Part shown: positions 1,210 to 2,355 of the stretch, piece after piece
Numbering within the stretch: position 1 is the stretch's first letter
Layout: each line of letters starts with the position of its first letter
Assembly (NCBI GenBank): GCA_019752125.1
Contig: JAIEMM010000010.1
Coordinates: 6,558 to 70,557, forward strand
From: Patescibacteria group bacterium
Lineage (GTDB): Bacteria; Patescibacteriota; Minisyncoccia; Phycocordibacterales; SBAW01
Direction: 5' to 3'
Length of the DNA: 64,000 nt
Notes under the pieces: model-generated
What the model saw: the letters and a program-made list of their open reading frames with translations, nothing else
What the model was told of the DNA's origin: nothing
Database searches by the model: none
Position numbers and translations under genes: made by a program

Positions 1210-2355
1210 ATGAGTGCACCGCAACGACTTTCTCCAGCCTCGTTCATTAAACACGCCGCAGACGTTTCAAACTTTTACGGATTCAAGCCGATGAAGGAGA
1301 TTGAACGTGGCGTACCGCGCGCATTGCGTGCAAAAGGCCCGCACTCTTTCGTCACAACGACAGCTCTATCATCTTCGTACTTTGCACAAAAACCTACACA
1401 ACCAGTACTCAGTTTTTATGCGTCTCATACTCCCTCACACTTGCCAGGTTCGTATATACCGCGCGAGACAGGCGAGTTTGGACTACAGGTAGTTGGTGCG
1501 GATGACAGCCTTGGTGAAATAGTTGTACTTAAAACACTGTTCGCAATCTTAAATGAATGGGGCGCACATGTTGGACGACTCCGCATTAATACCCTTGGAG
1601 ATCGAGATTCCAAACTCCGCTTCGAACGCGAGCTTTCGGGCTTCGCACGTAAACGCGCAAACGAGATGAGCGAGTGTTGCCGTGCCGGAAGTGCACAAAA
1701 CGCATTAGCTCTTTATAGATGCGAAAATGCCGCATGTCGCGACCTTGTCCGCGAAGGTCCGCGCACGATGAACTTCCTGTCAGAAAAAAGCCGCGTCCAC
1801 TTTAAAGACGTACTTGAACATATCGAGCGACTCGGTTTCCCGTATGAACTCGACGACCTGCTTGTAGGAGACGACCGCGACCCACGCGTAGTGTTTGAAC
1901 TTGATCTAGAAACCCCTGACGCAACAGTGCTTTCTGTTGTTGGCGGTCGTCACGACGACTACGTACGCAAAGTAACCGGCAAAAAAGAAGGCAGCTTGGT
2001 GTCCGCAAGCATATTCTTCCGTAATAACGGTATTGCTCGAGCCCATTTTGCACCGGTCCCAACAGCCAAGATACCGAAGGTGTATTTTGTACAGCTAGGC
2101 CTCCGCGCAAAGCTCGAAGGGTTAGCTGTGGTAGACATGCTCCGCGACGCAGGCATGCCTGTCTCCCAATCATTTGACGCAAAGAGCCTGACACCTCAGC
2201 TTGAGTCTGCAAAGGCACAAGGCGTCTCTCACCTACTTATCATGGGTCAGCGCGAAGCCCTCGACCGCACCGTTATTGTCCGTTCTGCCACAAACTCCTC
2301 CCAACAAATCGTCCAACTCGCCGCGCTCCCCCGATTTCTGAAATCGATAAAGTAG
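1210..2355 (+). CDS. histidyl-tRNA synthetase-like class II aaRS paralog (degenerate)
   Basis: Motif-2-like YIPRETGEFGLQVVGAD, motif-3/HisB-like VVGGRHDDY, and a C-terminal anticodon-binding-like HLLIMGQREALDRTVIVRSATNSSQQIV. The HisA RGLDYY box is replaced by GDDRDP and about 30 aa of the N-terminal catalytic region are missing. Confidence 0.6.
   Translation: MSAPQRLSPASFIKHAADVSNFYGFKPMKEIERGVPRALRAKGPHSFVTTTALSSSYFAQKPTQPVLSFYASHTPSHLPGSYIPRETGEFGLQVVGADDSLGEIVVLKTLFAILNEWGAHVGRLRINTLGDRDSKLRFERELSGFARKRANEMSECCRAGSAQNALALYRCENAACRDLVREGPRTMNFLSEKSRVHFKDVLEHIERLGFPYELDDLLVGDDRDPRVVFELDLETPDATVLSVVGGRHDDYVRKVTGKKEGSLVSASIFFRNNGIARAHFAPVPTAKIPKVYFVQLGLRAKLEGLAVVDMLRDAGMPVSQSFDAKSLTPQLESAKAQGVSHLLIMGQREALDRTVIVRSATNSSQQIVQLAALPRFLKSIK

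What the first reader, a model, noticed from the sequence alone, without database searches (positions are those of the whole stretch)
1210..2355. Degenerate histidyl-tRNA-synthetase paralog sitting directly upstream of a tRNA-like RNA
The protein keeps class-II motif-2-like and GGR(H)DDY motif-3-like blocks and a HisRS-type anticodon-binding C-terminus. The histidine-binding RGLDYY box is replaced by GDDRDP and about 30 aa of the N-terminal catalytic region are deleted, so it is unlikely to aminoacylate. Catalytically dead aaRS paralogs such as HisZ have moonlighting roles, and here the gene sits immediately 5' of a tRNA-like element lacking an anticodon arm (2425-2493).
Basis: partly seen in the sequence, partly recalled or inferred. 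Interest (0 to 1): 0.55.

Follow-up and report, generated by a model that had tools for sequence, protein, structure and literature searches.

The report
Degenerate HisRS at the ancestral hisS locus
This candidate-phyla-radiation bacterium carries, at the spot where its relatives keep their normal histidyl-tRNA synthetase gene, a well-conserved descendant that has lost nearly every catalytic residue but kept its tRNA-binding parts; the tRNA-like RNA next to it is an unrelated insertion found only in this strain.

Summary
The ORF (1210-2355, 381 aa) is real and has a HisRS fold. It has lost the motif-2 arginine, the HisA box and the LRPEGT histidine loop. It keeps motif 1, the motif-3 arginine, the insertion-domain helix and the anticodon-binding domain, and it is under strong purifying selection (dN/dS 0.03-0.05).

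No evidence supports a stray paralog. Six of six canonical or near-canonical Parcubacteria hisS genes looked up sit in the same pth-lepB-hisS context, four with S21-ybeY-ftsA-ftsZ downstream, so this gene is the positional ortholog of hisS. It belongs to a large degenerate family: at least 139 clusters at 50% identity.

The tRNA-like element (2425-2494) lies in a roughly 225-nt insertion. That insertion is absent from all 70 related species loci and from five contigs of closer relatives. Transposases occupy the same spot in other species. There is therefore no conserved protein-RNA link.

The best reading is a pseudo-synthetase that still binds tRNA-His. Whether a working HisRS exists elsewhere in these genomes could not be tested. 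I found no description of this family in the searchable literature.

The parts
1210..2355 (+). HisRS-derived ORF (381 aa), the positional ortholog of Parcubacteria hisS, with degenerate catalytic motifs
   Evidence: dN/dS is 0.03-0.05 against close relatives.
1264..1290 (+). Motif 1 / dimer-interface remnant (aa 19-27, VSNFYGFKP), retained
   Evidence: The Y-G-F positions are kept in 89-99% of 139 degenerate cluster representatives. They are invariant in alignments A1 and A3.
1402..1497 (+). Degenerate motif 2 (aa 65-96, PVLSFYASHTPSHLPGSYIPRETGEFGLQVVG)
   Evidence: hhalign mapping: E. coli R113 -> S76, E115 -> L78, R121 -> I83, F125 -> T87, Q127 -> E89, E131 -> Q93. The motif-2 Arg is kept in 6% of degenerate representatives and 100% of canonical ones.
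1858..1899 (+). HisA-box remnant (aa 217-230, LLVGDDRDPRVVFE, in place of LVRGLDYYTRTVFE)
   Evidence: The HisA Arg is kept in 3% of degenerate representatives and 100% of canonical ones.
1936..1959 (+). Motif 3 (aa 243-250, VVGGRHDD) with the class-II arginine R247 retained
   Evidence: The Arg is kept in 99% of degenerate representatives and is invariant in A3.
2074..2352 (+). HGTP-type anticodon-binding domain (aa 289-381), the best-conserved part of the protein
   Evidence: Pfam PF03129. It is 48% identical to canonical P0305, against 26% for the catalytic part. Key residues are kept in 97-100% of degenerate representatives. dN/dS is 0.005-0.018.
2356..2582 (.). Strain-specific insertion of about 225 nt between the stop codon and the conserved rpsU promoter block
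   Evidence: Alignment A2 against L001, L068 and L011. The insertion is absent from all 70 loci and from loci L107-L110.
2425..2494 (+). tRNA-like fold: acceptor stem GCUGGCA/UACCAGC (one C.A mismatch), a 9-bp central hairpin (2435-2466), a T arm and discriminator A
   Evidence: Rfam tRNA 18.2 bits, below the gathering score of 29. Fold. ARAGORN calls it only with relaxed or mitochondrial settings. Genuine tRNAs in the window score 55-68 bits.
2415..2504 (+). Leader (2415-2424) and trailer (2495-2504) form a 10-bp helix that extends the acceptor stem
   Evidence: Minimum-free-energy folds.
2448..2459 (+). Inverted-repeat arm 1, GCCTTGATAAGC, which is mostly the exposed apical loop of the central hairpin
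   Evidence: Unpaired probability is about 1.0 for 8 of 12 positions.
2495..2522 (+). Sigma-70-like promoter TTGACT-16-TATAAT (11 of 12 consensus positions) inside the insertion
   Evidence: This is a consensus match only, with no expression data.
2530..2541 (+). Inverted-repeat arm 2, GCTTATCAAGGC, a perfect complement of 2448-2459, lying just 5' of the terminator
   Evidence: Duplex energy is -21.4 kcal/mol, against -9.9 on average for shuffled seeds.
2542..2579 (+). Intrinsic-terminator-like hairpin (13 pairs) followed by a T run
2586..2626 (+). Conserved rpsU upstream block (CTTGCG...TGGTAAGGT) shared with relatives
   Evidence: Alignment A2.
2627..2878 (+). rpsU (ribosomal protein S21), the conserved downstream neighbour
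622..1179 (+). lepB (signal peptidase I, Peptidase_S26), the conserved upstream neighbour

Best explanation
The gene is the direct descendant, at the same chromosomal position, of the Parcubacteria histidyl-tRNA synthetase gene.

Shown:
- It has lost the residues every known HisRS uses to bind ATP and histidine and to form His-AMP: the motif-2 Arg and loop, the HisA Arg/Tyr/Tyr, and the LRPEGT loop.
- It keeps the dimer-interface motif, the motif-3 Arg, the insertion-domain helix and above all the anticodon-binding domain.
- It is under strong purifying selection and belongs to a large degenerate family.

Inferred: it acts as a non-catalytic, probably dimeric, tRNA-His-binding protein (a pseudo-synthetase), and histidylation is done by another enzyme encoded elsewhere.

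Not established: its cellular role. Candidates are sequestering, chaperoning or sensing tRNA-His, or pairing with an active HisRS.

Shown for the RNA: the adjacent tRNA-like RNA is not part of this system. It lies in a strain-specific insertion of about 225 nt, at an intergenic spot that repeatedly receives mobile DNA in related species. It is most simply a tRNA-derived or foreign small-RNA cassette.
For: Fold and ancestry: HisRS fold. hhalign against canonical Parcubacteria HisRS gives probability 100 and E 2.6e-66.

Loss of catalytic residues: TIGR00442 scores 95.7 against a cutoff of 286.75, and PF13393 is not detected. Across 139 degenerate cluster representatives, the motif-2 Arg is kept in 6%, the HisA Arg in 3% and T85 in 2%. 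By contrast the motif-3 Arg is kept in 99%, the motif-1 G and F in 97-99%, and anticodon-binding-domain residues in 97-100%. Column information content, canonical versus degenerate: motif 2 3.7/1.2, HisA 4.0/1.9, anticodon-binding domain 3.35/2.41, INSxGD 3.6/3.0. The former active-site loops differ between sub-lineages (GDDRDP, GNKKYC, GTDECH, GPKDQY), which argues against a shared remodelled active site.

Selection: dN/dS is 0.03-0.05 overall and 0.005-0.018 in the anticodon-binding domain.

Positional orthology: lepB-X-S21-ybeY-ftsA-ftsZ holds in about 70 of 70 loci. Canonical or near-canonical hisS occupies the same slot in 6 of 6 look-ups.

Gradient of decay: TIGR00442 scores fall 267 > 230 > 158 > 150 > 127 > 121 > 101 > 96 > 86.

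RNA: absent from every relative examined. It was also not found in IMG/VR or, using a T-arm/acceptor probe, in JGI metagenomes. IS200-like and IS110-family transposases sit at the same junction in L040, L056 and L003.
Against: - No second, canonical HisRS was found for any genome that carries the degenerate gene. None lies in the 64-kb window, and none lies within +/-10 kb in 70 loci. The whole genomes could not be searched, so the required replacement enzyme is assumed, not shown.
- The catalytic-domain remnant is itself strongly constrained (dN/dS 0.03-0.056), and the motif-3 Arg is nearly universal. Some ligand binding or residual chemistry at that site is therefore not excluded.
- tRNA binding is inferred from domain conservation only.
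Confidence: 0.65

Rival explanations
1. It is still the organism's only HisRS and charges tRNA-His with a remodelled, non-canonical active site.
For: It is the positional ortholog of hisS. It is universal in the lineage and under housekeeping-level constraint, including the catalytic-domain remnant. The motif-3 Arg is kept in 99%. No second HisRS was seen in any fetched DNA. Canonical Parcubacteria HisRS hits never shared a contig length with a degenerate-gene contig and were never labelled Adlerbacteria or Kaiserbacteria.
Against: The motif-2 Arg is invariant in class II synthetases, and here it is absent together with the HisA Arg, the two Tyr, and E83/T85. The former pocket loops are not conserved between degenerate sub-lineages, so each lineage would need its own new active site. 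Only about 20 kb per genome was examined, so not seeing a second HisRS carries little weight.
Confidence: 0.12
2. It is a non-catalytic subunit that heterodimerises with a separately encoded active HisRS, supplying or modulating tRNA binding.
For: The motif-1 dimer interface is retained. The anticodon-binding domain and insertion-domain helix are conserved.
Against: No partner has been identified. Nothing distinguishes this from a homodimeric tRNA-binding protein. No co-conserved neighbour is specific to the degenerate lineages: the synteny is the same as in canonical lineages.
Confidence: 0.1
3. One reading: a moonlighting HisRS paralog that works together with the adjacent tRNA-like RNA.
For: The two are adjacent in this window. 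The protein keeps a tRNA anticodon-binding domain. Relaxed ARAGORN (-ps80) can force an 84-nt 'tRNA-His(GTG)' fold on 2411-2494.
Against: The element is absent from all 70 species loci and from relatives at 88-96% identity, whose gap is too short to hold it. The protein family is conserved without the element. The forced tRNA-His fold has two acceptor mismatches and a weak anticodon stem, and it competes with a 9-bp hairpin.
Confidence: 0.03
4. It is a HisZ-like regulatory subunit of ATP phosphoribosyltransferase.
For: HisZ is the classic catalytically dead HisRS relative. NCBI labels one family member (P0151) 'ATP phosphoribosyltransferase regulatory subunit'.
Against: There is no TIGR00443 match for the window protein at E <= 1. 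HisZ lacks the anticodon-binding domain, which is the most conserved part here. No his-biosynthesis genes appear in the conserved neighbourhood. From general knowledge, CPR bacteria largely lack amino-acid biosynthesis.
Confidence: 0.03
5. It is a decaying pseudogene left over after replacement of hisS.
For: The catalytic motifs are lost.
Against: The reading frame is intact in every one of 70 species. dN/dS is 0.03-0.05 with dS 0.8-1.7. Mean column identity is 62% across the family.
Confidence: 0.01

Closest known systems
Canonical bacterial histidyl-tRNA synthetase (hisS; TIGR00442; PF13393+PF00587+PF03129), specifically the Parcubacteria/Minisyncoccia clade (e.g. P0305, Candidatus Yonathbacteria)
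   Same: Same fold, same domain order and same chromosomal slot. The anticodon-binding domain is 48% identical. Motif 1, INSxGD, the insertion-domain helix (FLSE..R.HF..VLE.LE) and the motif-3 Arg are shared.
   Different: It lacks the motif-2 Arg and loop, the HisA RGLDYY box, the LRPEGT loop and the N-terminal GxxD motif. It is about 60 aa shorter and scores a third of the equivalog cutoff.
HisZ (ATP phosphoribosyltransferase regulatory subunit)
   Same: A HisRS-derived protein without aminoacylation activity.
   Different: From general knowledge, HisZ has no anticodon-binding domain, keeps a histidine-binding pocket and partners with HisG. This protein keeps the anticodon-binding domain, has lost the histidine-binding residues, and shows no TIGR00443 match.
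HisRS-like domain of the eukaryotic kinase GCN2
   Same: A degenerate HisRS fold with an anticodon-binding-like domain, thought to bind uncharged tRNA rather than charge it. It is recovered by Foldseek (9bf3, 8t7t, 9c9q; E about 1e-14).
   Different: The GCN2 domain is fused to a protein kinase and is eukaryotic. This protein is a stand-alone 381-aa bacterial protein, and it is much closer to bacterial HisRS (E about 1e-23).
tRNA (Rfam RF00005) and reduced tRNA-like structures such as D-arm-less mitochondrial tRNAs
   Same: The RNA at 2425-2494 has a 7-position acceptor stem, a canonical GGUUCGAGUCC T arm and a discriminator base. The same 3' half occurs in ordinary tRNA-Thr, tRNA-Leu and tRNA-Trp genes in metagenomes.
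   Different: It scores 18 bits, against 55-68 bits for real tRNAs in the window. It has no proper D arm, it has a 9-bp central hairpin, it is single-copy and it is not conserved.

Membership tests
Histidine--tRNA ligase (hisS equivalog) | Score at or above the TIGR00442 curated cutoff | tested here: not met
   95.7 bits against 286.75.
Histidine--tRNA ligase (hisS equivalog) | Detectable HisRS catalytic-domain profile (PF13393 / PF00587) | tested here: not met
   Only PF03129 is found at E <= 1. Canonical relatives carry all three profiles.
Histidine--tRNA ligase (hisS equivalog) | Class-II motif-2 arginine and ATP-binding loop (E. coli R113, R121, F125, Q127, E131) | tested here: not met
   The positions are S76, I83, T87, E89 and Q93. 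The motif-2 Arg is kept in 6% of 139 degenerate representatives.
Histidine--tRNA ligase (hisS equivalog) | HisA box RGLDYY (catalytic R259, Y263, Y264) | tested here: not met
   The sequence is VGDDRD. The Arg is kept in 3% of the family.
Histidine--tRNA ligase (hisS equivalog) | Histidine-binding LRPEGT loop (E83, T85) | tested here: not met
   The segment is shortened and not alignable.
Histidine--tRNA ligase (hisS equivalog) | Motif 3 GGRYD with the class-II arginine | tested here: met
   The sequence is GGRHDD with R247. The Arg is kept in 99% of the family.
Histidine--tRNA ligase (hisS equivalog) | C-terminal HGTP anticodon-binding domain | tested here: met
   PF03129, E 3e-6. It is 48% identical to the canonical domain.
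Histidine--tRNA ligase (hisS equivalog) | HisRS three-dimensional fold | tested here: met
   AF2 model pLDDT 88.5. Top Foldseek hits are 4e51, 4rdx and 1adj, E about 1e-23.
Histidine--tRNA ligase (hisS equivalog) | Aminoacylation of tRNA-His | not testable with these tools
   This needs biochemistry.
HisZ | HisRS-like catalytic core without an anticodon-binding domain | tested here: not met
   The anticodon-binding domain is present and is the best-conserved part.
HisZ | Match to HisZ profiles (TIGR00443) | tested here: not met
   No TIGR00443 hit at E <= 1. The only match is NF008942, E 0.045, over the anticodon-binding-domain region.
HisZ | Partner short-form HisG / his operon | not tested
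   No his-biosynthesis genes were seen among the neighbours inspected. The whole genome is not available.
GCN2-type HisRS-like domain | Fusion to a protein-kinase domain | tested here: not met
   It is a stand-alone 381-aa ORF. The fold similarity exists, E about 1e-14.
tRNA (RF00005) | Rfam gathering score / ARAGORN default call | tested here: not met
   18.2 bits against 29. ARAGORN does not call it. It is called only with -ps80 or -mt.
tRNA (RF00005) | Four-arm cloverleaf with a D arm and a 5-bp anticodon stem | tested here: not met
   The minimum-free-energy fold is a three-way junction with a 9-bp central hairpin. The best tRNA-like reading has at most a 3-bp D stem and a C.C mismatch.
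tRNA (RF00005) | Acceptor stem plus T arm with a GTTCGAnTC loop | tested here: met
   Sequence 2425-2431/2487-2493 and 2469-2485.

The most novel reading that the evidence does not exclude
Adlerbacteria and many other Parcubacteria have no canonical HisRS at all. The degenerate protein at the hisS locus would then be their only HisRS, working without the class-II motif-2 arginine and the HisA arginine. Otherwise tRNA-His would have to be charged by a route not yet known.
Probability: 0.12. Interest if true: 0.9.

Novelty: new variant of a known kind. Interest (0 to 1): 0.55.

Why it matters
Aminoacyl-tRNA synthetases are essential, and HisRS is normally single-copy. Here the ancestral hisS slot of a large branch of the candidate phyla radiation holds a protein that has shed its catalytic residues, yet it is conserved as tightly as a housekeeping gene.

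There are two possibilities. A second, so far unidentified HisRS may have taken over, with the old gene recruited for a new tRNA-His-related job; that would make a bacterial, stand-alone counterpart of the GCN2 HisRS-like domain. Alternatively, these organisms charge tRNA-His in an unprecedented way.

There is also a practical consequence. Annotation pipelines label family members inconsistently, as HisRS, as HisZ, as 'C-terminal domain-containing protein' or as hypothetical. That inconsistency could affect marker-gene completeness estimates and metabolic reconstructions for these genomes.

Tried and rejected
1. Second HisRS in the fetched DNA. I ran phmmer with the window protein and with three canonical Parcubacteria HisRS against all six-frame ORFs of the window and of the 70 loci. 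Only the one gene per locus was found.
2. Matching 'longest contig' lengths and organism names between degenerate-gene contigs and canonical HisRS hits, to detect co-occurrence. There was no meaningful match: the only shared value was 1832 bp, too short to hold both genes. The lists show only the best 120 hits, so this is weak evidence.
3. Element in relatives. A regex for the T loop, blastn-short and nhmmer against all loci found nothing.
4. Element in public collections. Four IMG/VR scans gave 0 hits. One metagenome scan with the T-arm/acceptor 22-mer gave 30 hits, 26 of them ordinary tRNA-Thr, tRNA-Leu or tRNA-Trp genes and none resembling the element.
5. tmRNA, intron-containing tRNA and any other Rfam family for the element: none.
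6. The 'tRNA-His(GTG)' fold from relaxed ARAGORN was rejected as a forced, weak structure.
7. A neighbour-joining tree of 139 degenerate and 94 canonical sequences. The groups separate, but there is no outgroup and the sampling is unequal, so it does not show whether degeneration happened once.
8. Literature. Eight full-text searches found no description of a CPR pseudo-HisRS.
10. The window protein itself is not on record in the contig index.
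Full report
THE OBSERVATION

The ORF at 1210-2355 (+) encodes 381 aa, and its ATG is the first start codon after the preceding stop. Pfam detects only the HGTP anticodon-binding domain, at aa 305-379. The NCBIfam hisS equivalog TIGR00442 scores 95.7 bits against a cutoff of 286.75. phmmer against PDB sequences gives bacterial HisRS as the best hits (1qe0, E 4e-20), aligned from motif 2 onward. An AlphaFold2 model built on 21 family members is confident (pLDDT 88.5, pTM 0.88). Its best Foldseek matches are full-length bacterial HisRS structures (4e51, 4rdx, 1adj; E about 1e-23), with GCN2 HisRS-like domains further down the list.

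Default ARAGORN does not call it. The nine genuine tRNAs in the window score 55-68 bits.

WHAT THE PROTEIN IS

The organism is a Patescibacteria/CPR bacterium. The closest public locus is Candidatus Adlerbacteria RIFOXYC1_FULL_48_26, at 96% protein identity. The protein belongs to a well-conserved family: more than 400 hits at 90% clustering, all about 380 aa, and 62% mean column identity in alignment A1.

A profile search of 1.84 billion cluster representatives returned 505 clusters at E <= 1e-30. Of the best 150, 148 lack the RGLDYY, LRPE and FRxE motifs. In contrast, relatives of the least degenerate member (P0247) are ordinary HisRS. They carry PF13393+PF00587+PF03129 and NCBI names them histidine--tRNA ligase. 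They come from Yonathbacteria, Nomurabacteria, Vogelbacteria, Azambacteria and related groups.

TIGR00442 scores run in a gradient from those canonical enzymes down to the window protein: 267, 230, 158, 150, 127, 121, 101, 96, 86 bits.

RESIDUE-LEVEL COMPARISON

hhalign of the family (A1) against 16 canonical Parcubacteria HisRS (A4) gives probability 100 and E 2.6e-66 over 367 columns. In E. coli numbering the mapping is as follows.
- Motif-2 Arg R113 -> S76.
- E115 -> L78.
- R121 -> I83.
- F125 -> T87.
- Q127 -> E89.
- E131 -> Q93.
- HisA R259 -> V219 in hhalign (the MAFFT column holds G220).
- Y263 and Y264 -> R223 and D224.
- The LRPEGT loop lies in a segment that is about 30-40 aa shorter and not alignable.

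Retained features are motif 1 (YGF.P), INSxGD, the helix FLSEKSR.HF..VLEH.E.LG.PY, the motif-3 arginine (R247) and the whole anticodon-binding domain.

Retention of the canonical residue in 139 degenerate cluster representatives, compared with 94 canonical sequences:
- Motif-2 Arg: 6% versus 100%.
- HisA Arg: 3% versus 100%.
- T85: 2% versus 100%.
- R121: 8% versus 99%.
- Motif-3 Arg: 99% in the degenerate set.
- Motif-1 G and F: 97-99% in the degenerate set.
- Anticodon-binding-domain residues R370, Q388, G404, E407, R416 and Q423: 97-100% in the degenerate set.

Mean column information, canonical versus degenerate:
- Motif 2: 3.7 versus 1.2 bits.
- HisA: 4.0 versus 1.9 bits.
- Anticodon-binding domain: 3.35 versus 2.41 bits.
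- INSxGD: 3.6 versus 3.0 bits.

The former active-site loops differ between sub-lineages (GDDRDP, GNKKYC, GTDECH, GPKDQY). This argues against one shared remodelled active site.

The gene is not decaying. Against relatives at dS 0.8-1.7, dN/dS is 0.03-0.05 overall, 0.03-0.056 for the catalytic-domain remnant and 0.005-0.018 for the anticodon-binding domain.

NO EVIDENCE FOR A STRAY PARALOG

In essentially all 70 species-level loci the order is lepB, this gene, rpsU (S21), ybeY, ftsA, ftsZ. This includes a 28%-identical outlier, L070. All six canonical or near-canonical Parcubacteria hisS genes I looked up lie in the same pth-lepB-hisS slot:
- P0305, Yonathbacteria.
- P0247.
- P0306.
- P0340.
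- P0424, Azambacteria.
- P0384, Nomurabacteria.

Four of the six have S21-ybeY-ftsA-ftsZ downstream, and in P0247, P0306 and P0424 a pyridine-nucleotide-disulphide oxidoreductase gene follows ftsZ (also in one of the two P0305 records), as in the window. The window gene is therefore the positional ortholog of hisS.

No second HisRS-like ORF exists in the 64-kb window or within +/-10 kb in any of the 70 loci. No co-occurrence could be detected through contig lengths or organism names. This covers only a few percent of each genome, so whether a replacement HisRS exists remains untested. That is the main gap in this report.

THE RNA

The element folds as a three-way junction:
- Acceptor stem GCUGGCA/UACCAGC with one C.A mismatch.
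- One 9-bp hairpin at 2435-2466.
- A perfect T arm.
- A further 10-bp leader/trailer helix.

With mitochondrial or relaxed settings ARAGORN reads it as a D-arm-less tRNA-Ile(GAU) or as a poor tRNA-His(GTG). Neither reading is convincing.

The decisive point is that the element sits in an insertion of about 225 nt (2356-2582). That insertion is absent from the three nearest GTDB loci (alignment A2), from all 70 loci, and from contigs of relatives at 94% and 88% identity. In those two relatives the gap between the gene and rpsU is only 42 and 22 nt.

The element was not found in IMG/VR. Its T-arm/acceptor 22-mer matches ordinary tRNA-Thr, tRNA-Leu and tRNA-Trp genes in metagenomes, and none of the 30 hits resembles the element.

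The same junction holds other insertions in other species, including IS200-like Y1 transposases (L040, L056) and an IS110-family transposase (L003).

Inside the insertion I noticed three further features:
- A strong sigma-70-like promoter at 2495-2522, matching 11 of 12 consensus positions.
- A terminator hairpin at 2542-2571.
- A 12-nt perfect inverted repeat. It makes the exposed loop of the tRNA-like hairpin (2448-2459) complementary to the first bases of the short RNA that this promoter would produce (2530-2541). My rough expectation for such a repeat is about 0.002 in 270 nt, and the duplex energy is -21.4 kcal/mol against -9.9 for shuffled seeds.

Without homologues this cannot be tested by covariation.

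HOW IT MOST LIKELY WORKS

Shown: the protein descends from HisRS, sits at the hisS locus, has lost the adenylate-forming residues, keeps the dimer motif, the insertion-domain helix and the anticodon-binding domain, and is under strong purifying selection.

Inferred: it no longer activates histidine but still binds tRNA-His as a dimer, while another enzyme charges tRNA-His. Its role is open. It might sequester, protect or sense tRNA-His, or modulate an active HisRS.

I put about 0.65 on this reading. The alternatives I weigh are:
- About 0.12 that it is the sole HisRS and still active.
- About 0.10 that it is a subunit pairing with an active HisRS.

COMPARISON WITH KNOWN SYSTEMS

- It fails five sequence-defined features of the hisS equivalog and meets three: motif 3, the anticodon-binding domain and the fold.
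- It is not HisZ, because it has an anticodon-binding domain and no TIGR00443 match.
- It resembles the GCN2 HisRS-like domain in concept but is not fused to a kinase.

Eight full-text searches found no paper describing it. Sources name family members inconsistently, including 'ATP phosphoribosyltransferase regulatory subunit'.

VERDICT

The sequence observation is confirmed. The dead-synthetase idea is supported. The paralog label and the tRNA-like partnership are not supported.

What remains is a large, conserved, apparently undescribed pseudo-HisRS family occupying the ancestral hisS locus in Parcubacteria. It is a new variant of a known kind, interest about 0.55. The outstanding question is where the working HisRS is, and whole-genome HMM searches would answer it.

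Noticed in passing
window 2448-2459 and 2530-2541; promoter-like 2495-2522; terminator 2542-2579: The exposed loop of the tRNA-like hairpin is perfectly complementary (12 nt) to the start of a short RNA of about 45-50 nt. That RNA would be made from a near-consensus sigma-70 promoter lying between the two arms and would end at the terminator. This may be an antisense pair, and it is an orphan sequence.
   Followed up: partly
junction between the HisRS-like gene and rpsU in L003 (11861-13219), L040 (6241-6894), L056 (4554-5213), L051 (2346-2858); also L002, L004, L005, L010, L021, L037, L063: This intergenic junction is a recurrent insertion site. It holds an IS110-family transposase in L003, IS200-like Y1 transposases in L040 and L056, a PaaX/Cas2-like protein in L051, and small unknown ORFs elsewhere. 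Most species have only 30-60 nt here.
   Followed up: partly
P0247 (L073 6001-7323) and P0210: These are intermediate forms. They are full-length HisRS just below the TIGR00442 cutoff (267 and 230 bits) in which the HisA and motif-2 residues are partly replaced (KEDGFY, FHRHTQ). P0247 sits at the same locus; the genomic context of P0210 was not examined. They may be snapshots of the decay.
   Followed up: partly
P0151, P0131, P0196 (cluster names) and hits: Public annotation of this family is inconsistent. The labels seen are 'ATP phosphoribosyltransferase regulatory subunit', 'His/Gly/Thr/Pro-type tRNA ligase C-terminal domain-containing protein', 'histidyl-tRNA synthetase' and 'hypothetical protein'.
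   Followed up: no
L019 and L069: The same MAG (MFD09222.bin.1.2) carries the degenerate gene with its whole neighbourhood on two contigs (518 kb and 12 kb). This is probably two strains in one bin or an assembly duplicate.
   Followed up: no
P0145, P0151, P0162, P0242 and similar: Many non-Adlerbacteria degenerate members carry a lysine/arginine-rich N-terminal extension of 30-50 aa in place of the canonical GxxD N-terminus. This would fit an added RNA-binding tail.
   Followed up: no
window 45584-46855 (-): A 424-aa ORF next to a DEAD-box helicase has no Pfam match at E <= 1e-5.
   Followed up: no
window 21956-22963 (-): A glucose-6-phosphate dehydrogenase-like ORF is only 336 aa, with a partial match to the C-terminal domain. 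This is unusually short for G6PD.
   Followed up: no
window 2586-2620 versus L001, L068, L011: The rpsU upstream block CTTGCG-N(17-18)-TGGTA(A/T)GGT is conserved across Adlerbacteria and probably marks the native promoter. A looser copy of it (GCTTGCTACTGTGGT, 2407-2421) lies just upstream of the tRNA-like element.
   Followed up: no
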